Shown: in pieces, positions 9,655 through 64,000 of the stretch
How the letters are laid out: each line of letters begins with the position of its first letter
Position numbering within the stretch: position 1 is the first letter of the stretch
Origin: Naegleria gruberi
Lineage: Eukaryota
Strand: one strand, 5' to 3'
DNA length: 64,000 nt
Assembly: GCA_000004985.1 (NCBI GenBank)
Contig: GG738925.1
Notes under the pieces: model-generated
Told to the model about the DNA's origin: nothing
Seen by the model: the letters and a program-made list of their open reading frames with translations, nothing else
Database searches by the model: none
Program-made: the position numbers and the translations under genes

Positions 9655-9900
9655 NNNNNNNNNNNNNNNNNNNNNNNNNNNNNNNNNNNNNNNNNNNNNN
9701 NNNNNNNNNNNNNNNNNNNNNNNNNNNNNNNNNNNNNNNNNNNNNNNNNNNNNNNNNNNNNNNNNNNNNNNNNNNNNNNNNNNNNNNNNNNNNNNNNNNN
9801 NNNNNNNNNNNNNNNNNNNNNNNNNNNNNNNNNNNNNNNNNNNNNNNNNNNNNNNNNNNNNNNNNNNNNNNNNNNNNNNNNNNNNNNNNNNNNNNNNNNN
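9655..9900. other. assembly gap (246 N)
   Basis: Run of N characters. It interrupts the 5' part of the minus-strand zinc-finger gene and the body of a plus-strand gene. Confidence 0.99.
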
Positions 9901-10023
9901 AAATATGGAATTAATTCTGTAACTTTGACAGCTGTTGGAACAGCTGCATTAATTTATGAAAAGAAATTTGGTTTTGTTGAATGTGGAAGAGTAGTTTATA
10001 TCAATAGACATGAGCAGTTATAA
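9901..10023 (+). CDS. 3' terminal fragment of an unidentified gene downstream of the gap
   Basis: Open frame KYGINSVTLTAVGTAALIYEKKFGFVECGRVVYINRHEQL ending at TAA 10021..10023. It overlaps the last 23 nt of the convergent kinase gene. The X-run in the track ORF is an artifact of translating N. Confidence 0.3.
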   Translation, partial: KYGINSVTLTAVGTAALIYEKKFGFVECGRVVYINRHEQL

Positions 10024-12217
10024 TTTCCAAAGCTTCCTTTGAGGATACTCTCTCTTCTGGGAGAAATTTGAGTGTTCCCTTCAAGAGAGTTTCCAGTTTT
10101 GCCATGGATGGCTTTCCAACTTTATCTGAATATATTCTCTCAATTTCACACTGAATGCATGCAAGTGTTTTTTCCTCTCCTTTTTGTATCATTTCCAAGA
10201 AGATATTCTTCCTCTCATTTCTTGTTAATAATTGATAGAGAACAATACCAGCGGACCATACATCGGCTTTTAGTCCATATCCTTGATTGAGTTGAAGCTC
10301 TGGGCTTTGGAATCCCATTGTTCCACTCACACTAAAAGCTCTACTTTCAACAATATGCTTGGAGAGACCAAAATCACCAACAAGAACATGCACTTTGGAG
10401 ATTTGATTTCTTTCATTCTTTTCAATGGAACCAATGAGAATATTTTGTGGTTTGATATCACGATGAATAACTTTTTTGGAGTGGAGCTCAACTAGAGCTG
10501 AGAATATTTGTTGCATGATTGAAATTATTGTTTTGAGTGGTAATATTGCAGCATCGGAAGTTCTAATGAGAGAGGACAAATCACCATATGGATAGTAGTG
10601 CATGACAATACACAGTACTGCACAGTCACTATTCGTATCGCTCTCCAAAGAAATTGGGTTGTAGTAATGTTGAAAGACATCTAAAACTTTAACAATATTT
10701 GGGTGATTGAACATAAGCATTTGGAGTGCCTCCTTCATAGCATCATTGAATGATTGATTAGAATTACTATGATCCATATCAACTGGGAGTAATTTGAGAG
10801 CTACTTGCTTTGTCTGTGAGGAAGATCCAAAATGATCTTCACACAAATAGACTGAGGAAAATCCACCACTTTGAATTTTTCTAAGAGGCAAGTATCTTTC
10901 ATTCCATAGTTGACTCTTTGGTTCTTGTGGAGAGGGAATAGATAAAGAAGATGCTGTATATGAAATATTGAAGGAGCTAAAACTCAATTTGGTGGAAGGA
11001 TTGGAAATTGGAGTAACTGGAGGAGAGTTGGTGGAAATTCTAATTTGATTAACATGTGGAGATTCCACAAGAAGGTCCAAATCATCCAACTCTATATAGT
11101 CATCACACTCTCTATCAAGGATTTCAATAAAGGAAATTCTTTGATTGCCCCTCAATATGGTTTCACACTTGTCCTTGATGAACTCTTCCACTGAATGAAT
11201 TGAAGGGAAAGGACTCTTTTGAGTGAGTTTCTTCTTTCTTGAACCGTGTTGAATCATCATGATATACCTGGGTTTATCATTCTTTTGAGAATTGTTTACA
11301 GTTGTTGTGGTCAAGTTTGGATTCACAGTATTTTCAACATGTTTCATTATCCAAGGATGATGAGTGAGATTCTTAATCAAAGATCGGGTGTAGGAATGAT
11401 TCTTGAAACACAGATTGAGGAAATCAATTACTGACTCTGAACATGACTCAGATTTAGGATAGTACTTTCTAATCATTTCTTCCATATTCTTTCCACTCGA
11501 TAACAGCTCAAATAAGGAATTCCAATCATAATCATAGAAGGGTCTTCTCTCAGTCATGAGCTCAATAACCAAACATCCAACACTCCAAATATCTGCCAAT
11601 GCTTGTTTTGTCCACTCACAACTCTTATTACATTTGAACAATGAAGGTGAGCTATAATTGATACATGGTTGATATTTAATATACTCATCTCTGGATAACA
11701 CAAATCCAATATCACACAATTTGATTTGTCCATTCCTGGATAACATGGTATTATTGGGAGTCAAATTCAGGTGTGCCATTTTGAGTTTCTGATGCATGAA
11801 CATAATACCCTGCAATACCTGATCAATATACTTGGCAATTACCTTCTCACTTGGTTTATATCCTTTCTGGGAGAGCATGGATAAGGAACCATTTTCTAGG
11901 AATTCCTCAACAACCACATAGAATTCCTCACCCTCCAAAATATTACCACTATCATTCATGATTGGAAGGGTGACACTGGCAAAGGTATGAGCCAGATATG
12001 GACTATATTCATTACTCAATTGTTTTGCTTTGAGGGTTTCAATTCGTTCTCTCAATTTTGGAACTACATCTTGATTGTAAACATGCTTGATTACTACAAA
12101 GTTTCCAGTTTGGATGTGATAGCCTTTGTAGATTTTATAGTACCAATTCTTTCCTAAACAATCAGATTCTCTATTTACTTGCTGTTCCTTCTTTGAGTAT
12201 TTTGAACTTTCTAACAA
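10001..12217 (-). CDS. Tandem protein kinase: N-terminal degenerate (pseudo)kinase domain plus C-terminal active Ser/Thr kinase domain. N-terminal extent unresolved (possibly continues to 12486).
   Basis: Domain 1 has VVIK and MAHLNLTPNNTML/CDIGF in place of HRD/DFG. Domain 2 has VALK, HRDIKPQNIL, DFGLSK and a SPE motif. The ORF has no ATG near its 5' end; its annotated M is a TTG. Confidence 0.8.
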   Translation of the reverse strand: MLESSKYSKKEQQVNRESDCLGKNWYYKIYKGYHIQTGNFVVIKHVYNQDVVPKLRERIETLKAKQLSNEYSPYLAHTFASVTLPIMNDSGNILEGEEFYVVVEEFLENGSLSMLSQKGYKPSEKVIAKYIDQVLQGIMFMHQKLKMAHLNLTPNNTMLSRNGQIKLCDIGFVLSRDEYIKYQPCINYSSPSLFKCNKSCEWTKQALADIWSVGCLVIELMTERRPFYDYDWNSLFELLSSGKNMEEMIRKYYPKSESCSESVIDFLNLCFKNHSYTRSLIKNLTHHPWIMKHVENTVNPNLTTTTVNNSQKNDKPRYIMMIQHGSRKKKLTQKSPFPSIHSVEEFIKDKCETILRGNQRISFIEILDRECDDYIELDDLDLLVESPHVNQIRISTNSPPVTPISNPSTKLSFSSFNISYTASSLSIPSPQEPKSQLWNERYLPLRKIQSGGFSSVYLCEDHFGSSSQTKQVALKLLPVDMDHSNSNQSFNDAMKEALQMLMFNHPNIVKVLDVFQHYYNPISLESDTNSDCAVLCIVMHYYPYGDLSSLIRTSDAAILPLKTIISIMQQIFSALVELHSKKVIHRDIKPQNILIGSIEKNERNQISKVHVLVGDFGLSKHIVESRAFSVSGTMGFQSPELQLNQGYGLKADVWSAGIVLYQLLTRNERKNIFLEMIQKGEEKTLACIQCEIERIYSDKVGKPSMAKLETLLKGTLKFLPEERVSSKEALEIITAHVY

Positions 12218-12486
12218 CTTACATAGTTTCCAATATTTAACAAGGAATTTCCTGGATTGATTGCATGGCTTTCACTCGAAATACTACAACGTCTAAAGTT
12301 TTGATCATAGAATAGGAGAGGTCGTTTCCAATTCTCTTCCTCATCATCCACCAACAGATTATTTCCCAGCAATTGATTATTGTCATTAATTATTTGACAC
12401 GTAGCAGGTTCTAAATTTTCAGGATTTGCTGCTGCTTGTTCAAAACCTCGATCAGAGGAGTTTTTAGGAGAAGCAACTTGTTGCAT
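12211..12486 (-). CDS. possible first coding exon of the tandem-kinase gene (91-aa ORF with ATG in A-rich context)
   Basis: ATAAAAATGCAACAAG start context. The ORF ends ...NIGNY then GTAAGT. A 32-nt GTAAGT..CAAAG interval (12191..12222) would join in frame to KEQQVNRESDCLGKNWYYKIYKG of the kinase ORF. That intron would be unusually short, so this is tentative. Confidence 0.3.
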   Translation of the reverse strand: MQQVASPKNSSDRGFEQAAANPENLEPATCQIINDNNQLLGNNLLVDDEEENWKRPLLFYDQNFRRCSISSESHAINPGNSLLNIGNYVSC

Positions 12487-12933
12487 TTTTATTTGTATTG
12501 CAATTGGTAATTTCCCAACTATGTACTACCATATTTGGAAATTTGTGATATCTATATCACAAGAGAATCTTTGAAGGATATCTATCTCTATTATCCTTAA
12601 ATCTGTTGTTGACTGTGCAACAAATCTTCAAGAACTTGTTACATGTTTGCCTTAATATTTAACAGAATGCTACAAAGATGTTATTGTGGACCAAATTTTC
12701 CTCAATCCCAAGCAATATTACTACTTCATGAACAACGTTCCATATTAAACTGCTCCACCGAGCATGTGCTGGTATAGGAAAAACTCAGGTCATGAAACCT
12801 GAAAACAATTCGCTCAATATTAACATCACCTCGATTTATTTGGAACGGTGAGAGAAGAACTTTGGACTAGAAGAAGAACAAGGAGAGAAAAAATTGTCCA
12901 CACACACATTTCAATAGAACCGCATACACACAC

Positions 12934-15082
12934 GTGATGACCATGAGTGAAGAAAATCAACCTCAATCATCATCACGCTGCTCTTCCCCGACTTGTTCCC
13001 TTAATGATTCAGCATCCTCCTCAATAACAATGGCAACAGTATCATCGGTGGTGACTAAGAGTGATCTGATTTTGAATATTGCTGTTGGGAATAATTTTGG
13101 AGAAGAAGAAGAAGAGCGAGCAAGTGTTGTACAGAATAACTATTATTCAACTCCCTTACATACACATCGAGAAAGTGGGTTGATATCGAGTGCAGTTCCC
13201 TTCACTACTTCACCTCAACATTGTTCATCATCAACATCGATTAAGAGAATGGTTCAGATCAATATTAGTTCGGAGGTTACATTGGGACAAATGAAGAGGT
13301 GTCTCACGAATGTTATGGCTTGTGATATTCATGCTGTATTTGTGAGAGTCCTGTGTTCGAGATGTGAAAATTCATATACACTTCTTGGTGAGACCAATAA
13401 GCTCTATCTTACTGATCAATATTCGGAAAAAACAAAACTCTCATTCAGTAAGGGAGTTGAAATTGAATATAATTTTGAAATGTTGAATTCTATAAGATTG
13501 GAGTTGTATGGTTTTGCAGCAGTTACTTTGAGATCATCCATTGATTATAGTGCATCATATAGTGAGGACGCCAAGTTTATTGGTTTTTCAAGAGATATTG
13601 AACTGATTCATATTGTGAATGGTAAACAATCAAAAATTGAACTGTACTCTGGGAGAGAGACACTGATATCGAGTTTAAATTTACAAAGCGATCTCTACTA
13701 TGAGATTGGTAACAATCAAGAATTGAGAGATTTGATAGAATCAACCAAACGATGTGACCTTGCCGAGTTGGAGACATTATTGACAGAAGTGCCACCAACC
13801 ATTTTCACGGAAACAAACATGATCACTTTCAAATGTAGAGCTATGGGATTGGATAGGAAAGATATATTCGCTCTCAGTGACCCTTTTATTGTGATTTTGA
13901 ATGATGAAAAGGAAATTTTCAGGAGTGAAGTTATTAAGGTAAGTTATTTCTAAAGTTTATTATGTGAAATAATTTCTATTTTTTAAAATTTATAATATTT
14001 AGAATATGCTCGATCCTGAATGGAATAGTTTTTCGATATCTTCATCCAAGCTTTGTGAAAATGACTATAACAAACAATTGAAAGTGAGATGCTATGATTG
14101 GGATTTAATATCTAGTAATGACCTCATTGGAGAGTTTTACTTTACTATTCTCCAAGTACTCAATGGAAATAAGCTCTATGAAATTATAGAGCCAAACCTT
14201 GCCAGAAAGAAAAAGGGATACAAACACTCTGGCATCTTTCAATTTTTACATGTGACAGAGTTTATGGGCAATGAGGAGAGTAAAAATCCAGAAAGAATAA
14301 TCTATGAAAAGATGATATGTTTAAAGAAGAATAAGGAGCTACTCTTCATGGATTATATAGAAGATGGATTCAATCTCTCTCTACACTTTGCAATTAGTTT
14401 CAGTAAGGAAAATTCTTCATTACATTTTCAAGGTAACAAGAATACCTATGAAAGAGTTTTGAAAACCTTTGGAAGAGTATGCGAGTGTTATTGTGATACT
14501 GAATTTTCCATGTATGGATATTCAGCAATCCAAAGAACAGCAAGTTCTCCTCAACAACAGCCATTCTTTACCTTAGACGACATGTATATAAATTCAATGA
14601 AATTTACAGGATACGAGAGAGCAATTAATACCTACCGAACAGGTTTGCAAAATATTGATTTTGATGAATTATCAAATGTGAGAAATCCAAAAACTAATCT
14701 CAATTTTAGAAATGATGATTTCTATCACTTGATTAATCATGTTTCGAACAATGTGGAAGAAAATGAGAAAACCTACAAGGTTCTTGTTATCATGATTAAT
14801 GGAGATGATATTGAGCTACAAAGAACTGTTGATGCACTTGTCGATTGCAGTTCTAAACCCATATCAATAATAATACTAGGAGTTGGATCCTGTTCCTTCT
14901 CCTCCTGTAAAATTCTATTCAGCAATAACCAATTTCAACATGGCTCAACTGGAAAGAAACCAATTCGGTGCAATGTTAAATTTGTTAGACTTCAAGATGT
15001 AAATGAGAATGCCTATTCGAAAATACTTGCAGATATTCCAAAGCAATTTGTAGAATATTATCAAATTAATAAAGTTTTCTGA
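12934..15082 (+). CDS. Copine-like protein (C2 domain(s) plus vWA-like domain). Exons join(12934..13938,14003..15082).
   Basis: C2B-like segment LSDPFIVILNDEKEIFRSEVIK|NMLDPEWNSF...LKVRCYDWDLISSNDLIGEF spans the junction. Donor AAG|GTAAGT at 13939 and acceptor ...ATATTTAG at 14002 give a 64-nt, phase-0 intron. The C-terminal vWA-like region is KVLVIMINGDDIELQRTVDALVDCSSKPISIIILGVG. Confidence 0.8.
13939..14002 (+). other. intron (64 nt) of copine-like gene
   Basis: GTAAGT...TTTAG. Joins two long ORFs in frame within a C2 domain. Confidence 0.8.
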
Positions 15083-15166
15083 AAGGCTCGATTGCTTATT
15101 CGAAACATTTCACTCTCACATCCAATAAAGGCTTTGCTAATTGGCGCCAAAATAACGATTAAAAAA

Positions 15167-18096
15167 ATGTCGCAAGAACAAACTCTCGAACAACAAGAAA
15201 CAGTGGAGGAAGATTCTCATCTTGTGGTCGATTTGGATTCGATAGAGCATACTGTCATTGGTTTGGCATTGGAAGGTAGAGAGGAACATCCACTTGCTAA
15301 ATTCCAAACACTCTCTGTTGAGGAATTATATAAACAACACTTTCAATTGAATGGAAGTAATACAACATCAATGAAGGCTATTTTCGACAATGGTCTCGAT
15401 GATGAACAAGTTAAACAACAACGACAAAAATTCGGGGAGAATGATATTTATACAAAATTAGTGGAAAAGTCTAGTTCGAAAATTTCATTCTGGAAGGTTT
15501 TCATTTCCGAAGTGAGAGAACCAATGATTTTAATGTTGTTTGTGGTTGGAATATTATATTTCATTTGGGATTCATTGTGGAATGCTATTGTTGTGTTTTC
15601 CTGCATTATCTTGATGGTTTTGGTCGAGGTTGGAAATGAATACAGATCAAAGAGAGGCGTGATGGAGCTCAAGTCTTCTTATTTCATGTCAAAGACTTGT
15701 ACTGTAAGGAGAAATGGTATTCTTTCTAATATTTCAGTTTCTGATCTTGTTCCAGGAGATGTTATTAACTTTAATGGAGGACAAATTCTTCCAGCTGATG
15801 TGAGACTTTATAATTATGAAAATAGACAGATTAGTGTTCAAGTGGATGAATCTATTTTGACTGGTGAATCAATGGTTTGCAATAAGCATGGTAACAACAT
15901 CTCTTCGAATGAAGACATGTCAAAGTGTGAAAACATTCTACTGACAGGAACCTCAATCAAGAAAGGAAAAGGTTTCGGTATAGTAGTTAATGTTGGTTGT
16001 GAAAATACTGGACTCGGTAATATTCTCAAGCTATTAGGTAAAAGTATGGAAAAGGATAAGAAAACTGAACTCCAAAAAACTATGAAAGAACTTGCCAAGT
16101 ATTTGACAATCATATCTATTGTGATGGCTTCCATTATTGTCATTGTAGGTTGGATTAGAGGATTTGACTGGAAAAAGATGCTACTTTCAGGACTCAGTAT
16201 TATGTTTGCCACTATTCCTGAGGAATTACCAATCATCATTAAGAGCGTTCTTGCTTTGGGCTCTCTTAATCTCTCAAAAAGAGTCTTCTCATTAAGAAAC
16301 TTCATGTTCCAGAATCTTTGGCCAATATTACACATATAATAACAGATAAGACAGGTACAATTACTAAAAATTGTCTCCAACTCATTCAAGTCAATCAGGT
16401 TGATAAGGATGGAAATGTAGATCTTGTCTACGATACAAAGAAACAAATGGAAAAGAATAATTGGATTATAGAATGGTTGCTTTCTGGTTATACTGAAGTT
16501 GGTGCGGATTTAGCTGATCCATTTGAAAAGAGTGTTTCTGAAGAGTTAGAAAGATGTTCTAACCAATCGTGGAAAGGATTTTTGAAAAACAGAACTGAAA
16601 ACTCTTACAGCATTGTAGATGAGATGCCATTCGATCATACCAAAGGGTTTGCTACCCTTATTCTTTCTTCTGGAGAATCTAAGTTTGTTACTCATAAGGG
16701 AATTCCAGAGAGAATGATCACTAATTGTTTGTTCTACCAAGTATCTAATGAATCAGAACAAGTACCAATGACTGAAGAGGTAAGAGAACGTATCCTATCG
16801 TTTTTGGAGGTTGAAACAACGAAAGGAATGAGAGTAATTTGTCTATGCAAAGACAATGAACAATCACAGATGGTTTTTGTGTCATTGCTTTCATTCACAG
16901 ACCCTCTTAGAAGTGGTGTCAAGGAAGCAATTTCTGATTGCAAAAATGCAGGAATTAAGGTAATAATTGTGAGTGGTGATCACACAAACACAGTAATATC
17001 AGCAGCTAGGGAATGTGGACTATTGAGCAGTGTAAAACAAGATTTATTAGTTGAAGAGCATGAGCATTCAGAAGATGAAGACATTGAATTAGAAGCTTCC
17101 CTTCTCTCCAATAGACAATCTGTATGTATTGAAGGAAAGGATGTCAACGATAAAATGGATGTTGACTCTGTTTGTGCCATTTCGAGAGCAACACCTCAAA
17201 ATAAGTACGACTTGGTTGAAATGTTAAAAGAACAGAAGGGATATAAGGTTCTCGTCTCAGGTGATGGTATGAATGATGTTCCAGCAATTTCCAATGCAAC
17301 TGTTGGAATTGCTATGAGATCTGGAGTTGATTTGGCGAAAGAGGCAGCTGAAATCATCATAATGGATGATAATTTTGCTACCATTGTGGCTGGCATTAGA
17401 GAAGGAAGAAGATTGTATGCAAATTTGAGAAAATCTTTGCAATTCTACTTGTCATGCAAAGTCACCCTTGTTGTATTGTTTGTTACAAACATGATTGTTG
17501 GTGGTTCGAGTGCTATTCCATTTATTCCTCTCGAGCCAATGCAAATTATTCTTCTAGAACTATTTAGTGATATTGGAGCAGCCACTACCTTTGTGTTGGA
17601 AGAGGAAGAGGAAACCTTAATGAAAAATCCACCAAGGACCGAGAAGAATTTTGTTGACAAATCCTTTATTTATCACATAATAATTGGCTCCATATCTCTC
17701 TTTGCTACAGTATTCTCATCTTACATGTTAGGAGTGTTTGTGCTATCTCCAATGTATGGTCTTGAAGGTTCCTCTCACCAAGAATATGCTCAAAGTATGA
17801 CAATGATTGCTTGGCTGATTGGTCACGTCTTTTTAGGTTACAATTTCAGAACTATATCTACCCCTCTAACGATTCACGGTATTTTCTCAAACACTATGAT
17901 GAATGTTTGGTTTGCTGTTGTGTTGATTTCAGTTTTGCTACTCCAATTTGTTCCAATCCTCTACACTGCTCTGAGGTTGCAACCTTTGGGATTTATTGGG
18001 CATATTTCTATTTGGCTCCTCATTCTCATATTTATTGGATGGCAGGAAGCACTGAAATGGATAACAAGGTTATTGAAAATTAAACAAACTCTTTAA
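15167..18096 (+). CDS. P-type cation-transporting ATPase (type II, Ca-ATPase-like). The reading frame is broken by an apparent 1-nt deletion in an A5 run at 16276..16280.
   Basis: N-terminal cation-ATPase region, TGES, PADVRL, DKTGTIT, DPLR, VSGDGMNDVPA and a C-terminal TM bundle. The frame-1 ORF (to 16339) and the frame-2 ORF (from 16270) together read LALGSLNLSK / KSLLIKKLHVPESLANITHIITDKTGT. This aligns gap-free to SERCA [37 protein letters not shown] if one extra A is present. ATG at 15167 in an A-rich context. Confidence 0.8.
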
Positions 18097-18488
18097 ACCG
18101 AATATATCTATTTAAGGAAGCCTAGTTATGCAAAATAATCCAATCACCACAGCTTTTCGATATTCAGTCACAGATTCTGAAACGGTCCTAATAAGAGAAC
18201 AATATTAATTATTTGTGTTAATGAAGACGATTACTGTAAAGTTGGGAGATACTGATATAATGCAGCCTTAAAACCACACGAACAAAAATGTCAGCAACTG
18301 GGCCCTATTATTCATCTACAACGGATGAAGGCACTAATATTAATTTTCCTCACCTTCATAGTTGCTCTTTTCTTTCACATTATGAGGTAGAAGTGTTTTC
18401 AAACACAAAATTACTCAAATGAACTCTCATGCATTTTAAATATTTAACAATAATTGAATATTGAATATTGTAAACACTAAAAAAATTC

Positions 18489-19052
18489 ATGATGAGGAAA
18501 TCAACAATCAAAACATCCACACCATCAGCTCTGAAACGTAATAATCTCTCCTCGCTCACACTCTCCTCTCTATATATTTGTTTCAACATTCGTCTATTAG
18601 ATTGGTTTGGTATGCATGGAATTGTCTTGTATCCTTTTGTATTATTTGCTCTCCCAAAGGATTGTCTGTACAAGGAATTAATTCAACACGAATTGATCCA
18701 TGCAAGGCAGATTAAACGAGAAGGCTTCTTCTCCTTCTACTTTTCCTATGCGAAGGAATTGATGATGAATATTGGAAGGGAATTATTGAAAGCCTTTGCA
18801 AAACAAGAACCAAAGAAGAGAAAGTCATCAAGATCAACAGCTGTTAGTATTGAAAGTAGTGGTGGTGGATTTTCTCTTGGGAAGATGATGAGAAATATTT
18901 CCTATGAAGATGAAGCCTACGGCTTGGAACATGTATCATTGTATGATGAAGAGAAGAAATATTTGAAGGATAGATTTGATATTGATATGGATGATTTGAT
19001 GACAGAGGAGGAATATAATTCGGGCGATGTTTATAGTAGTTGTGATGAATAA
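18489..19052 (+). CDS. Small protein with HExxH zinc-metallopeptidase-like motif resembling bacterial DUF4157 (the real start is probably at an internal Met)
   Basis: GMHGIVLYPFVLFALPKDCLYKELIQHELIHARQ. A hydrophobic stretch followed by HELxHxxQ matches the DUF4157 signature (LLAHELTHVVQQ). Acidic C-terminal tail. Confidence 0.45.
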   Translation: MMRKSTIKTSTPSALKRNNLSSLTLSSLYICFNIRLLDWFGMHGIVLYPFVLFALPKDCLYKELIQHELIHARQIKREGFFSFYFSYAKELMMNIGRELLKAFAKQEPKKRKSSRSTAVSIESSGGGFSLGKMMRNISYEDEAYGLEHVSLYDEEKKYLKDRFDIDMDDLMTEEEYNSGDVYSSCDE

Positions 19053-31546: not shown

Positions 31547-33131
31547 ATGTCAGCATCACAAATAGAAGCAAAAGAGGATCAGAGAGCACAAATCGTGATT
31601 CCTATTAATAAAAACTTGAGTAAACACGTTTGGATTAGAGGCTTTACCAATTACAACATCAGTAGACAGACAACAAATGCAGGAATGATTTTTCTTCCCT
31701 CTCCGATTTCATCAAGAAGGAAAACCAAAGTAGCCTTCGGATCAACAGATTATTTTGAGAAATTAAATGTTGAACGGTTATATTCATTCATGGGATATGA
31801 TACTTGGTATTCTAATATAGTAGAGGTTCCGTTTATTGAATTTTCAAGATTGTCATTGTTTGATGATTCGGAATCTTCAGAAGAAATGAATGATCAAGCA
31901 GTAGAGAATGTAGATAATGTAAAGAATGTAGAGAATGTAATGGTTGATGATCTTGTTGAGGATGAATATTTGAATGATGATGATGAATGGATGGACGATG
32001 ATGTTGATGATGAATCATCTGTAATAGAGATTGTGCCAGTTAATGTTGAAGCAAGTGTGGCTGAACAAGTTAAGGAAATGAGAGCCGAGCAAGAGAAAAT
32101 TAGATTTAGAAAATTAATACAGCCAAAACAATTGCTGTCGACAAATTTCAGTGGTACATATTATCCACCTGGAAGAATATTTCAATCAGTTTGTATTGAT
32201 GAAAGGAATAATAATGTTTATGTTTATGGAGGATTTTCAGGGAATAGATCTCCTTGTTCTCTCATTACAAGATTTTCAATTGAAGGTAACGAATTAAAAG
32301 TTGAGGATTTAACTGATTCTTTCCAATTAGTAGAAGCAACAGAAGCCAAAGACAAGCTTGGTAAAACACCTTTCAGAGAGGGACATACGGCAGTAATAAG
32401 GAAAGGAAAAATGTATGTTTTGGCAGGAAATGCTCAACGAACAGGAACTTTTGAAAAGGAATTGTTGGAATTTGATTTGGAAAAAGGAAATATCAAACCC
32501 TACCAGACAATTTGCCTAGGAAAACCATTCACACCAAGAGCTTATCACTCTGCTACATATATTGAAAAACGAGATGTCATGTGTGGTACGTTTTTTATTC
32601 CTTGTCAAGGTATATTAATTTTAATCTGGACAATATTCATCAATAGTTTATGGAGGTAAGATGAAGCCAGGATTACAGTCAGGGGTTTCGAATGAACTAT
32701 TCTTGTTTCATTTTCAAACTCATACTTGGGAAAATATTGAGCTTAGAGATTTCATTTTCCCACCTCTTTCAGGTCATTACATTTTCAAAATTAATAATGA
32801 TAATATAGGGATCATAGGAGGAGTGTCAAAACCATACTCGGAAGAAAAAGAAGATTTAAATTCAAATCTATTTGTTTACAACTTGGAGTATAATTCATTT
32901 TCGGCCATAGATTTGGGACCTTATGGATTCAATGGGAGATATAGCATGCCAGCAGCTTTCAGTGCATCAAATCAACTATTAGCTATTGGGGCTGGAAACA
33001 CCAGTTACAGAGAGGGTGATTTTACAGTCATTTATTTTGAAACTGTGGAAACCAATAGCGAACATTTTGTCAAACCATTGTTGTTGAATTCCTTTGACGA
33101 TGTATCAATAATTTGTCAAACTATGGAATAA
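31547..33131 (+). CDS. Kelch-repeat protein with acidic N-terminal region. Exons join(31547..32585,32647..33131).
   Basis: Kelch-type repeats NNVYVYGGFSG, HTAVIRKGKMYVLAGN, PRAYHSATYIEKRDVMC|VYGGKMKPG, FHFQTHTWENIEL and NNDNIGIIGG. The 61-nt intron TGT G|GTACGT...CAATAG|TT joins two ORFs within a Kelch blade. Confidence 0.7.
32586..32646 (+). other. intron (61 nt) of Kelch-repeat gene
   Basis: GTACGT...AATAG. Phase 1. Reconstitutes the Kelch motif DVMCVYGG. Confidence 0.7.
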
Positions 33132-33208: not shown

Positions 33209-34361
33209 CTAAATATCACTTTCTCCAGCAACGAGTTTAGTTAATTGTTTCATTTCGAGAATGTAATTGAGTCCTTCATCACGAAACTTATTTGCAGAAA
33301 TATCAAGATTCCTTAATTGTTTCATGAGACTAATATACTTAGCTCCCTCATTACCAATAGAATTAAAGGAAATATCAAGTTTTGTTAATTGGTTCATATC
33401 ACTAACATGCTTTGCTCCTTCATCACCAATATAATTATCACAAATGTTGAGATTAGTCAATTGTTTCATTTGTTGACTAATAACTCTTGCTCCTTCATCA
33501 CCAATATCATTCGTGAAACACGAAAGTTTGGTCAACTGTTTCATTCCACAAATGTATTCCATTCCATTCACCAAAATTATTGGCACCGATATTTAGAACA
33601 GTCAATTGTTTCATTTCACTAACGAGTTTCACTCCGTCATCATCAAATATATTTGCAGAAATATTGAGATTGGTCAATTGTTTCATACCACTAAGATGTA
33701 CCACTCCTTGATTACCAATCTTATTGATACAAACATTGAGTTTTGTTAATTGATCCAATTCAGAAATATATTTTGATCCCTTGTCACGAATATTATTTCC
33801 AGAAATATTGAGACTGGTTAATTGTTTCATTGTACTAATATATTCAGCTCCAAAATCATTAATTCTGTTATATGCAATTTTAAGCACTCTCAGTTGTTTC
33901 ATTTCACATATGGATTTAGCTCCCTGATCACATATATCATGATTACTAATATCTAGCATTGTTAATCCTTTCAAATTCTTAATGGAATAAGACAGTTTCT
34001 TATAAACTTTTTCATTATTAATGGAAGACCTTGCAACTTTTAATTTGTAAATATTTTGTAAAAATCTTCCCTCCATTTTCTTGATACAATCACTTTTACA
34101 AATTAATGAAAGTTTCATTCTTTCCAAAATAACAGTCAACCACTGTTTGGAAACGAGTGCACAATTCAACACTAGAAAATTAAAATCATGAAAAGAAAAT
34201 ATTTCACACAAAATATCGGCATAGAAAAGTGGAATATCTTCCTTCAGCTTTTTTGTTTCGGGTGATGATTGATTACAGTTTGATGGATCGAATACTTCTC
34301 TTGTTCGTTTGCTCATTTTTTTTTGATTGTAATTGATCAAACCTTTTTGTAATTGACTCAC
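33209..34361 (-). CDS. F-box plus leucine-rich-repeat (RNase-inhibitor-type LRR) protein. The reading frame is shifted once near 33556..33575.
   Basis: N-terminal F-box-like segment DIPLFYADILCEIFSFHDFNFLVLNCALVSKQW. Roughly 24-aa repeats of the form LxISxNxIGDEGAKYISxMKQLTxL continue across both ORFs (33507..34361 and 33209..33586). The frames switch inside the tandem GAATGGAATGGAATAC. Confidence 0.6.
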
Positions 34362-34817
34362 GAATAATCGTGTTAAATGACTGATGATAAAATTGCAAGA
34401 TCTAATGTTCTGTTCTTTGAGTTAAAGCTTCCGAATAAACAGAATTAACAGAGTATGGGTTGGAGGACCTCTCTAATTATGATGATAGTATTGGGAATTG
34501 TTGTTAGGTATTTAGCTTAGTATGTTGCGGAACTTCTCTTAATTCTTTTGCGACCAAAATCAGTAATTTGTCAATTTGGATTTGATTGGAAGATGCAAAC
34601 AACATTCAAGAAAATTGTGACTATTAATTCAACAATCTAATTGAATCTTAAATATTGTAAAAACAGATTGGATTGTTGAACAAGAAAAACAACATTAAAA
34701 AAATCACACAACTACGATCAAACCCTCTATCTGAACCAAAACTCAAAATCATCGAGTGCATTGTTTATACCATATTTGGAATATTACTATTCTTGCAAGT
34801 TAAAAGTTATTGTAAAA

Positions 34818-61758: not shown

Positions 61759-61947
61759 ATGGAAGGATGTTGTGGAGGTGGAATATTTAAAGAAGATATT
61801 ATTTTAAAGATGAAACAATTTGCTGCCTCGTCATCGGGATCGGAAAGTATGAGCATTATGGATATGATGCATTTTGTAGCATCTGTTATTTTCCCAGTTC
61901 TATTATTTGTGTTTTGTTTGTACATTGTTTTAAAGAGAAAAGATTAA
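61759..61947 (+). CDS. possible small tail-anchored membrane protein (62 aa)
   Basis: ATG after A7. Ends with the hydrophobic segment VASVIFPVLLFVFCLYIVL followed by KRKD. It overlaps the 3' end of the convergent gene by 4 nt. Weak support. Confidence 0.25.
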   Translation: MEGCCGGGIFKEDIILKMKQFAASSSGSESMSIMDMMHFVASVIFPVLLFVFCLYIVLKRKD

Positions 61948-64000
61948 TTGGCCTTCTCAACATCTTCTTGGATTCTTTTGTAGGCATTCATCCACTTAAT
62001 TTCAGCAAATATATATCCAATTGTTTTGCTTGAAAGACCTAACCCTGCCCTAGTCAAGTTGGTGATGAGTGTGAGAGTACTACTATTGTGTGGATTATTA
62101 GCTTCTTTAACTTCCGATTCCTTGAATCTCTTTTTCCAAATATCCTTATTTGAGTTTGGATCAATTTCTAGCATAAATGGAACAAATTCTTCTAATTGTA
62201 GTCTATCTTTCTCGAATTTAACGAGAACTTTACTTTCTCCCATTTCTGTCCAATATTCTGTTACATCTCTGAATGCAATAATGAAGAAAGTGTTCAATTT
62301 GGAAAGGAAATATTGATTGCTCTCAAAACAAACAGGATCGGCCATAATAATGTCATTAATAAGAGTTTCTCTTTCTTCTGTTGGAACTTCTTGATAGATA
62401 GATCCTAAAATTTCAATAACAGCTTCTCTCTTCAGAGGTGATTTGGAGTCCTTAGCATAATTGTTCCATTTTGCTCTTAATGCATGTAAGGCAAGTGAAA
62501 CACTTGCACCGAATGCTGGATCATTAAGACCCTCCATAGATTTACAAAATTCCAGAATATCCTTAGCATTGTTAGTAAACTTGTTTGAATGGAATTAAAT
62601 ACTTACAGCGTACTTGGCTCTAAACTCTTCGCAAGCAGTCAAAAACTCAAAGCTGACCTTATGTACAATCTCAGGTAATACAAACAATTGATCCAAAACA
62701 TCATACAGCAGATAATCAATGCTTTTTACCTCCTTTTGAGGCTGTCTATAATCTTTGTAGTGTTGTACATATGTATCTAAAATAATCTCTCTCACTTCCT
62801 TTAAGGTCATCTTTCTTGTTGTCACATCTGTAATAATCTTATTTCCATATCTCGATTTATAAACATCCCATATTTTGCTCATTGCTTGAGTATTTGGTGA
62901 AATACCAATTCTGCTTAGGGTTGGTTTGAGGAAAGTGAACTTCTCATCTTCTTCAAGAGGGTCTACAACTTCACATTCAAGAGGAAGAATAGGATCGAAA
63001 TTAGGATTGTTAATGGCGTCCTGCATATTTGGATGGTTTTTGTAATAATGCAATTGAGAGTGAATAAGTTTCATATGAGTAACACCATGGGGTACTTCAA
63101 CCACTTCTGGAGTGTACTGAGGTGTGATTGTTGAACGATGAGCAAGTTTGAATTTACCATCACTTTTAGAAAAGAATACTTCTATTGAAGATCTCAAACT
63201 CAAAGCATCCAGGCCCATCATTGGTGAAGTTGTATCATTACTCACACAAAATGCAAGTTTTGGCTTTTTCTTTTGTTGATCTTCGGCTTTTGTTTTGATT
63301 CTAAGAGTGTTTTCGTCCAACTTATTCACTTTTTCGTGAATTATCATCATTTCATTATTCAGTAACTGAGCATCAGAAACAAATTCTGTCTTTATGGTCG
63401 ATTTCTGTAAAATGGATTAGTTAGAATGGCCACACATTTCAACTTACATCTACTTGCTTAGCTTGATGGATTTCAAATGAGTAGTCTTCAATCCTTCTAT
63501 TTTCAAGCATTTCCAATTGCTCGTGTAACTTTGTGAGTACTGATAGATCTTCTTGTATATCATGCATATCTTTCTTATCTTTCATCTGGAAACGTTTCAT
63601 TACAAAGTATCTCTTCTTCTTTGTTTCGTTGTCTTCCTTATAGGATCTTAAAAACTTAATTTCAGTTCTTAATTTAGTATTGTTCTTTTCAGTTTCGTCG
63701 AGTTTTGCTCTTAATTCCTTATAGGATTGCTCAGTACTCTTTTTAAGATTTGAACACTCCTCTTTCAGTTTCTCATGAGCTGCAGTAAGCTTTTTTAATT
63801 CTTCTCTACAGTCGCTGTGTACTCGTTTTTCATTAGACAATTCTTTTACAAGCTTTCCCTTTTCAAGCTCACTCTCTGAAATGAGTTCATAATCTGCTGC
63901 AGCTTTTTTCATTTCATCCAGCAGTCCAATATCTCTGTCGTTCACTACTAACGAATAAAAAGGTACTTTAAATCTATCATCCACCTCTGATTTAACAAAT
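61944..64000 (-). CDS. Hypothetical protein with N-terminal coiled-coil. Exons complement(join(61944..62561,62608..63404,63448..>64000)). The 5' end lies beyond the window.
   Basis: Three ORFs are joined in frame. GAT|GTAAGT...TTTTACAG (43 nt) joins ...HQAKQVD to KSTIKTEFVSD... and GCT|GTAAGT..TTTACTAACAATGCTAAG (45 nt, with a TACTAAC branch site) joins ...EEFRAKYA to DILEFCKSMEGLNDPAF.... The frame is open to base 64000 upstream of the annotated GTG start. Confidence 0.6.
62562..62606 (-). other. intron (45 nt) with canonical TACTAAC branch-point
   Basis: GTAAGTATTTAATTCCATTCAAACAAGTTTACTAACAATGCTAAG. The alternative 27-nt AG (..AAACAAG) is too close to the donor. Confidence 0.6.
63405..63447 (-). 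other. intron (43 nt)
   Basis: GTAAGTTGAAATGTGTGGCCATTCTAACTAATCCATTTTACAG. Phase 0. Joins the coiled-coil exon to the downstream ORF. Confidence 0.6.

What the first reader, a model, noticed from the sequence alone, without database searches (positions are those of the whole stretch)
16270..16285. P-type ATPase reading frame broken by a 1-nt deficit in an A5 homopolymer just upstream of the DKTGT phosphorylation site
Frame 1 (LALGSLNLSKR...) and frame 2 (SLKKSLLIKKLHVPESLANITHIITDKTGT) overlap around CTCAAAAAGAG. Inserting one A gives LALGSLNLSKKSLLIKKLHVPESLA, which aligns gap-free with the SERCA segment [25 protein letters not shown]. Every other conserved motif of the pump is intact. This is therefore either a homopolymer base-call or assembly error, or a very recent inactivating mutation, rather than an old pseudogene.
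Basis: seen in the sequence. Interest (0 to 1): 0.5.

Follow-up and report, generated by a model that had tools for sequence, protein, structure and literature searches.

The report
One-base frame break in Naegleria pump gene
A cation-pump gene in the Naegleria gruberi reference genome is split into two reading frames because one base is missing at a run of five A's; this is an ordinary sequencing error or a very young mutation, and the public gene model hides it behind a false intron.

Summary
Two long ORFs, 15092..16339 and 16270..18096, overlap in different frames at the A5 run 16276..16280. Adding one A gives a 976-aa P-type ATPase. It aligns without gaps across the site with human SPCA1 and four prokaryotic homologues. 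It also matches the single-exon orthologues of N. fowleri, N. lovaniensis and an uncultured relative, which all read LSKKNLLIKKLHVPES.

The window is the N. gruberi NEG-M draft assembly. The public model NAEGRDRAFT_54145 (XP_002669533.1) can be rebuilt exactly from it. That model bridges the break with a false 137-nt intron (16145..16281) that deletes TM4. A second false 806-nt intron fuses the gene to the next ORF.

Neither half carries any other lesion. The downstream frame has 0 stops in 605 codons, against 45-49 in the other frames. There is no excess of changes at conserved sites, so this is not an old pseudogene. A real intron and programmed frameshifting are both rejected.

These tools cannot separate a consensus error (about 0.55) from a very young or allelic frameshift (about 0.38). 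No independent N. gruberi sequence was found. The finding is ordinary and of low interest, apart from the annotation fix.

The parts
15167..16279 (+). Upstream part of the ATPase coding sequence: Met1 to Lys371, covering the N-terminal domain, TM1-2, the A domain with TGES, and TM3-4. Frame congruent to 2 mod 3.
   Evidence: Pfam Cation_ATPase_N, E1-E2_ATPase. tblastn of the N. fowleri orthologue, residues 204-518, maps to 15350..16282. Taking the first ATG at 15167 as the start is an inference.
16214..16231 (+). TM4 ion-site motif IPEELP (in place of PEGLP of Ca pumps). Invariant in the Naegleria orthologues and the prokaryotic homologues.
16276..16280 (+). A5 run. The 1-nt deficit lies within 16274..16281. 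A6 would read TCA AAA AAG AGT = S K K S.
16280..16339 (+). Out-of-frame tail of the upstream ORF (RVFSLRNFMFQNLWPILHI, stop at 16337..16339). It has no similarity to the orthologues.
16279..18096 (+). Downstream part of the coding sequence: Lys372 to Leu976 plus the stop. It holds the P and N domains and TM5-10. Frame congruent to 1 mod 3. No stops in 605 codons.
16345..16359 (+). DKTGT phosphorylation motif, 22 codons downstream of the break.
16145..16281 (+). Spurious 137-nt 'intron 1' of public model NAEGRDRAFT_54145 (GTAGGT...AAAAAG). It ends at the G that follows the A run and removes 45 codons that encode TM4, including PEELP.
   Evidence: Exact reconstruction of P0001 from the window. 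By my count from the sequences, the removed peptide matches N. fowleri at 39 of 45 residues, against 56% for the whole protein.
17795..18600 (+). Spurious 806-nt 'intron 2' of the public model. It removes TM8-10 and the true stop, and fuses the pump to the next ORF.
   Evidence: The removed segment is collinear with the C-termini of the orthologues.
18489..19052 (+). Separate downstream ORF (187 aa, HELIH motif, no family hit). Positions 18601..19052 are wrongly used as exon 3 of the public ATPase model.

Best explanation
The locus is a single-exon gene for a 976-aa P2-like cation-pumping P-type ATPase of Naegleria gruberi. It belongs to a subfamily with PEELP in TM4 and YLSCK in TM5. In the reference draft assembly, one base is missing in or just before an A run (A6 read as A5, 16276..16280), 22 codons upstream of the catalytic DKTGT.

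My preferred reading is that this is an error of the consensus sequence. That includes the case where the assembly picked a minor or faulty read at a thinly covered spot. On this reading the amoeba makes the intact pump.

Shown:
- the break and its exact position;
- the perfect one-base repair;
- the intact state in the orthologues;
- the absence of any other lesion;
- the false introns of the public model.

Inferred: that the deficit arose in sequencing or assembly rather than in the cell.
For: - The repair is gap-free against SPCA1 and seven homologues.
- Orthologue DNA reads AGT/AGC AAG AAG AAC in single-exon genes.
- There are 0 stops in 371 + 605 codons, against 20-49 in the other frames.
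- N. gruberi has 13 private changes at otherwise invariant columns, nearly all conservative, against 12 for P0004. Purifying selection therefore acted essentially up to the present.
- If the lesion is real, it is younger than about 1-2% neutral divergence.
- The window is a draft scaffold with a 246-N gap at 9655..9900.
- A second gene in the same 64 kb (F-box/LRR, minus strand, about 33572..33580) also has a frame break at a short run. That fits a draft-level indel error rate of about 1e-5 to 1e-4 per base; this rate is my estimate from general knowledge of roughly 8x Sanger drafts, not measured here.
- The deposited model XP_002669533.1 is identical to the window, so the deficit is in the reference itself.
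Against: - Sanger consensus errors at a run of only five A's are not common.
- Naegleria is described as mainly a heterozygous diploid (PMC9928731), and NEG-M is a long-cultured axenic strain. A real heterozygous or strain-specific frameshift allele would look identical.
- Replication slippage produces the same homopolymer signature as a base-call error.
- No read-level or independent sequence of the locus was available.
Confidence: 0.55

Rival explanations
1. This is a real, very young frameshift mutation: replication slippage turned A6 into A5, or a single base was lost. It is either one allele of a heterozygous locus that the mosaic assembly happened to pick, or it is fixed in the laboratory strain NEG-M. 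That allele would yield a truncated 371-aa product plus a 19-aa nonsense tail, with no P or N domain, and so would be null.
For: The sequence evidence is the same as for the error reading, because the two are indistinguishable at this level. Naegleria is reported as a heterozygous diploid with ploidy variation and culture-associated change (PMC9928731). A second broken gene lies in the window. The age bound of about 1-2% neutral divergence or less is compatible with allelic variation.
Against: The gene is conserved as an intact single-exon gene in N. fowleri, N. lovaniensis and an uncultured relative. It shows no relaxation in N. gruberi. My rough prior, from general knowledge, is that draft-assembly indels outnumber genuine loss-of-function alleles per gene by about 2-3 to 1.
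Confidence: 0.38
2. This is recoding. The ribosome slips -1 on A_AAA_A (tRNA-Lys re-pairs from 16277-79 to 16276-78), or RNA polymerase adds an A in the run. The full-length pump would then be made from the A5 template by design.
For: A -1 slip on A AAA would give exactly LSKKSLL (what the sequence shows). The downstream frame is perfectly preserved.
Against: There is no X XXY YYZ heptamer; the zero-frame context is C UCA AAA AGA. The 121 nt from the site show no downstream structure, with a folding z-score of 0.09. A5 is far shorter than the runs known to support transcriptional slippage (general knowledge). All three orthologues encode the protein in one frame, with AAG AAG codons and no run, so nothing is conserved.
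Confidence: 0.03
3. The frame change is bridged by a real spliceosomal intron, as in the public model (16145..16281), or by another GT-AG pair.
For: A GT...AG pair of the right phase exists and was used by the annotators.
Against: The 'intron' encodes TM4, with IPEELPIIIKSVLALGSL identical in all orthologues and IPEELPIII invariant in the prokaryotic homologues too. The orthologous genes have no intron.

I enumerated 109 frame-restoring GT-AG pairs of 12-400 nt. Each deletes at least 5 residues, and every one of 35 nt or more deletes at least 12, from a block whose length is invariant. None has a GTAAGT or GTACGT donor.

The four genuine introns seen in the window are 43-64 nt with GTAAGT or GTACGT donors. 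The two read on the minus strand carry CTAAC branch sites.
Confidence: 0.02

Closest known systems
Naegleria orthologues: N. fowleri FDP41_013633 (P0002), N. lovaniensis C9374_013469 (P0003), and an ENA metagenome contig (P0004)
   Same: They are 55-56% identical over the full length and share the same motifs: IPEELPIIIKSVLALGSL, LSKK-LLIKKLHVPES, DKTGT, SGDHTNT, YLSCK. The alignment is gap-free across the break.
   Different: All three are uninterrupted single-exon genes of 1026-1068 codons. They use AAG AAG for the two Lys codons, so they have no A run. Their N-termini are longer.
Prokaryotic 'cation-transporting P-type ATPases' of Bathyarchaeia, Hermodarchaeota and Acidobacteriota (P0005, P0023, P0066, P0089)
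   Same: These are the nearest relatives outside Naegleria, at 36-37% identity. They share the subfamily signatures PEELPIII (TM4), YL(S/A)xK (TM5) and QII(L/V)LELF-D (TM6).
   Different: They are about 870 aa long. They lack the Naegleria N-terminal extension and the acidic insert in the P domain. They keep TGD and DPPR where Naegleria has SGD and DP(L/I/V)R.
SPCA1/PMR1-type and SERCA-type Ca2+-ATPases (PDB 8iww, 7yag, 1iwo) and Listeria LMCA1 (6zhh)
   Same: These are the best solved-structure matches, with E-values from 3e-88 to 2e-69. They have the same domain order and a gap-free TM4-to-DKTGT segment.
   Different: The protein scores far below the curated family cut-offs: TIGR01522 396 against 798, and TIGR01116 319 against 703. 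It has PEELP in place of PEGLP. By my reading of the alignment, a Lys sits in TM5 near where Ca pumps have Asn/Glu. Ion specificity is therefore unknown.
Homopolymer frameshift artefacts, and annotation 'pseudo-introns', in draft eukaryotic genomes
   Same: There is a single-base length difference at a short run. The gene predictor restores the frame with a non-biological GT-AG intron.
   Different: Nothing differs in kind. Whether the deficit is in the DNA of the strain is untested.

Membership tests
P-type (E1-E2, HAD-IC) ATPase | Catalytic DKTGT phosphorylation motif | tested here: met
   DKTGT lies at 16345..16359 in the downstream frame.
P-type (E1-E2, HAD-IC) ATPase | A-domain TGES, hinge GDGxND, and the domain order N-term / E1-E2 / hydrolase / C-term | tested here: met
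   TGES and GDGMND are present. Pfam PF00690, PF00122, PF00702 and PF00689 all score above their cut-offs. TIGR01494 scores 242.7 against a cut-off of 62.3.
P-type (E1-E2, HAD-IC) ATPase | One continuous reading frame encoding all domains | tested here: not met
   The frame is broken at 16276..16281 in the sequence as given. Adding one base restores it.
PMR1/SPCA-type Ca2+-ATPase (TIGR01522) | Score above the curated equivalog cut-off | tested here: not met
   395.9 bits against a cut-off of 798.3.
SERCA-type Ca2+-ATPase (TIGR01116) | Score above the curated cut-off, and the PEGLP TM4 motif | tested here: not met
   319.2 bits against 703.4. The TM4 motif reads PEELP.
Programmed -1 ribosomal frameshift site | Slippery heptamer X XXY YYZ in the zero frame | tested here: not met
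   The context is C UCA AAA AGA.
Programmed -1 ribosomal frameshift site | Stable downstream stimulatory RNA structure | tested here: not met
   MFE is -11.5 kcal/mol against a shuffle mean of -11.7, z = 0.09.
Programmed -1 ribosomal frameshift site | Frameshift conserved in orthologues | tested here: not met
   All three orthologues are in a single frame.
Spliceosomal intron bridging the frames | The removed segment is non-coding and absent from the homologues' proteins | tested here: not met
   The removed segment encodes the conserved TM4. No alternative GT-AG pair spares the conserved block.
Old (unitary) pseudogene | Several disabling lesions and relaxed constraint | tested here: not met
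   There is only one lesion. Both halves have 0 stops. Private changes at invariant columns number 13 against 12 in a sister lineage, and nearly all are conservative.
Assembly or base-call artefact | Underlying reads or independent sequence disagree with the consensus | not testable with these tools
   No reads are available. No independent N. gruberi sequence was found.

The most novel reading that the evidence does not exclude
The genome truly carries A5, and the amoeba still makes the full-length pump by a low-efficiency -1 slip of tRNA-Lys on A_AAA_A, or by transcript slippage. That would be a lineage-specific recoding event in a cellular eukaryotic gene. A less exotic variant, with probability about 0.38, is that NEG-M is a natural null or heterozygous null for a prokaryote-like PEELP-type pump that is conserved in the pathogen N. 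fowleri.
Probability: 0.03. Interest if true: 0.6.

Novelty: already known. Interest (0 to 1): 0.15.

Why it matters
The main value is practical. The public protein XP_002669533.1 / D2W2A3 (NAEGRDRAFT_54145) is a chimera. It lacks TM4 with the ion-binding motif, it lacks TM8-10, and it carries an unrelated C-terminal ORF. Anyone using it for transporter inventories, phylogeny or structure prediction in Naegleria will be misled. The corrected 976-aa sequence given here should replace it.

If the frameshift proves real, NEG-M would be a natural (possibly heterozygous) knockout of a pump that is conserved in N. fowleri. There is no new biology in the frame break itself.

Tried and rejected
1. Looking for independent N. 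gruberi sequence across the site.
- Homologue searches with a 150-aa and a 375-aa query returned no N. gruberi fragment.
- They also failed to return P0001-P0004, so retrieval with shorter queries is evidently incomplete. This absence is weak evidence.
- The full-length search showed no 100%-identical fragment among the 120 hits listed (all 457 bits or more), so short fragments could be hidden below that.
- P0001 is not in the contig index.
- A protein-guided scan and an exact-DNA scan for A5 or A6 in JGI metagenomes found nothing.

2. Literature.
- The N. gruberi genome paper (PMID 20211133) is not held.
- No paper mentions NAEGRDRAFT_54145, XP_002669533, D2W2A3 or EFC36789.
- The supplements of the N. 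gruberi copper proteomics paper do not list the gene.
- A search for 'PEELP' with ATPase found nothing relevant.

3. Intron reading. I enumerated all frame-restoring GT-AG pairs and rejected them.

4. Programmed frameshifting. I checked the heptamer and folded the downstream RNA and rejected it.

5. Old pseudogene. Rejected on stop counts and the conservation test.

6. Split gene making two polypeptides. Rejected by inference: the downstream frame has no ATG before DKTGT, only a TTG at 16318, and the next in-frame Met lies after the catalytic Asp.

7. Other adjacent-ORF pairs in the window that looked like frame breaks turned out to be normal short introns: copine 13939..14002, kelch 32586..32646, and two in the gene at 61947..63999.

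Full report
OBSERVATION

The sequence at 16260..16300 is GCTCTCTTAATCTCTCAAAAAGAGTCTTCTCATTAAGAAAC, and the A5 run occupies 16276..16280.

In the upstream frame the ORF 15092..16339 reads ...ATIPEELPIIIKSVLALGSLNLSK. It then runs into RVFSLRNFMFQNLWPILHI and stops. The frame one base back opens after a TAA at 16267..16269. It reads SLKKSLLIKKLHVPESLANITHIITDKTGT and continues to a stop at 18094..18096. The third frame is closed.

Inserting one A gives a 976-aa protein starting at the ATG at 15167. Pfam finds Cation_ATPase_N, E1-E2_ATPase, Hydrolase and Cation_ATPase_C in the normal order. The best solved-structure match, human SPCA1 (8iww), aligns without any gap from residue 271 to 408, straight through the repaired site.

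ORGANISM AND PUBLIC ANNOTATION

The best database hit is 'predicted protein [Naegleria gruberi]' (P0001, 912 aa). Its accessions are XP_002669533.1, EFC36789.1, NAEGRDRAFT_54145 and UniProt D2W2A3, on a 182,562-bp contig.

I could rebuild P0001 exactly from the window as three exons: 15371..16144, 16282..17794 and 18601..19052. The window is therefore the N. gruberi reference, and the one-base deficit is in the deposited assembly.

The model gets round the frameshift with a 137-nt 'intron' (16145..16281, GTAGGT...AAAAAG) that ends on the G right after the A run. This removes 45 codons, VGWIRGFDWKKMLLSGLSIMFATIPEELPIIIKSVLALGSLNLSK, which form TM4 and its ion-site motif. By my count from the sequences, that peptide matches N. 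fowleri at 39 of 45 residues. The whole protein is only 56% identical.

A second 'intron' of 806 nt (17795..18600) removes TM8-10 and the true stop, and fuses the pump to the next ORF (18489..19052). Both segments are collinear with the orthologues' proteins. Both introns are therefore annotation artefacts.

ORTHOLOGUES

N. fowleri (P0002), N. lovaniensis (P0003) and an uncultured relative on an ENA metagenome contig (P0004) are 55-56% identical to the repaired protein. All three are called as single uninterrupted genes of 1064, 1068 and 1026 codons.

At the site they read LALGSL(Q/N)LSKKNLLIKKLHVPES, encoded by AGT/AGC AAG AAG AAC. N. gruberi has TCA AAA (A)AG AGT. tblastn of the N. fowleri protein against the window switches frame between 16282 and 16303.

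The upstream frame agrees with the orthologues only up to LSK, and the downstream frame only from KK. The two Lys codons overlap by one base. The lesion is therefore a one-base deficit located within 16274..16281.

AGE AND CONSTRAINT

Neither half has another defect:
- The upstream half has 0 stops in 371 codons, against 20 and 37 in the other frames.
- The downstream half has 0 stops in 605 codons, against 45 and 49.

In an eight-sequence alignment, N. gruberi has 13 private changes at columns that are invariant in all the others. Nearly all are conservative, such as I/V, L/I, D/E, K/R and A/S; one is W to H. The comparable single lineage P0004 has 12. There is no sign of relaxed selection.

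The nonsense target size is 142 site-equivalents. Allowing for indels, a neutrally drifting copy would be expected to pick up a second lesion within about 0.3-0.7% divergence. The 95% bound is about 0.8-2.1%. An old pseudogene is excluded.

ALTERNATIVES TESTED

Intron. All 109 GT-AG pairs of 12-400 nt that restore the frame delete at least 5 residues. Every pair of 35 nt or more deletes at least 12 residues, from a TM4-to-DKTGT block whose length is invariant in all homologues. None has a GTAAGT or GTACGT donor. Genuine introns in this window are 43-64 nt with GTAAGT or GTACGT donors: copine 13939..14002, kelch 32586..32646, and two in the minus-strand gene at 61947..63999. The two minus-strand introns carry CTAAC branch sites.

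Programmed -1 frameshifting. The context C UCA AAA AGA is not an X XXY YYZ heptamer. The downstream 121 nt fold no better than shuffles, with z = 0.09. The orthologues have neither the run nor the shift.

Transcript slippage. A run of five A's is not expected to support it (general knowledge).

ERROR OR REAL MUTATION?

These tools cannot decide this.

Points in favour of an error:
- The window is a draft scaffold with a 246-N gap at 9655..9900.
- A second gene in the same 64 kb is also broken at a short run. It is an F-box/LRR protein on the minus strand. At about 33572..33580 its 24-residue repeat register needs two more bases after TTT G, or one T fewer in TTTT.
- My rough prior is that draft Sanger indel errors outnumber genuine loss-of-function alleles by about 2-3 to 1 per gene. 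This comes from general knowledge and is not measured here.

Points in favour of a real allele:
- Naegleria is described as mainly a heterozygous diploid with ploidy changes in culture (PMC9928731).
- A5 is a short run for a Sanger error.
- Replication slippage leaves the same signature as a base-call error.

I found no independent sequence of the locus and no mention of the gene in the literature or in one proteomics supplement. I put the error reading at about 0.55 and a real young or allelic frameshift at about 0.38.

WHAT THE GENE IS

It passes only the generic P-type ATPase model, TIGR01494 (243 bits against a cut-off of 62). It falls far below the curated cut-offs for PMR1, SERCA, PMCA, H+, Mg2+ and ENA types.

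Outside Naegleria, its nearest relatives are uncultured archaeal and bacterial pumps (Bathyarchaeia, Hermodarchaeota, Acidobacteriota) at 36-37% identity. They share PEELPIII in TM4, YL(S/A)xK in TM5 and QII(L/V)LELF-D in TM6. It therefore works like a P2-type cation pump but is not a member of any named subfamily, and its ion is unknown.

VERDICT

The finding is ordinary. What this work adds is the organism, proof from orthologues, exclusion of the intron, recoding and old-pseudogene readings, and the demonstration that the public gene model is a chimera that should be corrected.

Noticed in passing
window 33510..33592 (minus strand), break at about 33572..33580: A second frame-broken gene. 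An F-box/LRR protein (ORFs 33510..34421 and 33212..33592, minus strand) changes frame inside a 24-residue LRR unit: ...MKQLTVLNIGANNFG | VNGMEYICGMKQLTKL. The DNA AAT AAT TTT G GTG AAT needs two more bases, or one T fewer in the T4 run. No plausible intron bridges it. Like the ATPase break, it is either a draft-assembly indel or a family pseudogene.
   Followed up: partly
window 15371..19052: The public model NAEGRDRAFT_54145 (XP_002669533.1, D2W2A3) is a chimera. It starts at an internal Met (15371), has two false introns (16145..16281 and 17795..18600), and is fused to the unrelated ORF 18489..19052.
   Followed up: yes
window 15167..18096; proteins P0005-P0120: Outside Naegleria, the top 120 hits are prokaryotic or unnamed metagenomic proteins (those with names are Bathyarchaeia, Hermodarchaeota and Acidobacteriota), at 32-36% identity in the listing. 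No named eukaryotic hit appears among them. The aligned homologues share the signatures PEELP (TM4) and YLSCK (TM5). This could reflect lateral acquisition by the Naegleria lineage, or an ancient subfamily lost in other eukaryotes. No phylogeny was done.
   Followed up: partly
window 18489..19052: A 187-aa ORF with an HELIH (HExxH-like) motif and an acidic C-terminus. It has no Pfam or NCBIfam match. No hit to the window from the small genes that follow the pump in N. fowleri was detected at E below 1e-6.
   Followed up: partly
window 9655..9900: A run of 246 N, which is a scaffold gap. It shows that the window comes from a draft assembly.
   Followed up: yes
window 13939..14002, 32586..32646, 62562..62606 (-), about 63404..63446 (-): Four genuine short introns of 43-64 nt, with GTAAGT or GTACGT donors. 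The two on the minus strand carry CTAAC branch sites. They provide a local yardstick for real splicing signals.
   Followed up: yes
L003 (ENA ERZ27315067 k141_1203281, 7169 bp): A metagenome contig encodes an intact orthologue (P0004) that is 55-58% identical to all three named Naegleria species. It is presumably from an uncultured heterolobosean relative.
   Followed up: no
window 10004..12271 (-) against L001 2428..5098 (+): The protein kinase gene that lies upstream of the pump in N. fowleri is also nearby in N. gruberi, but on the opposite strand. The other neighbours differ: a copine gene at 12871..15079 in N. gruberi, and ABC transporter genes in N. fowleri. Synteny is only partial.
   Followed up: partly
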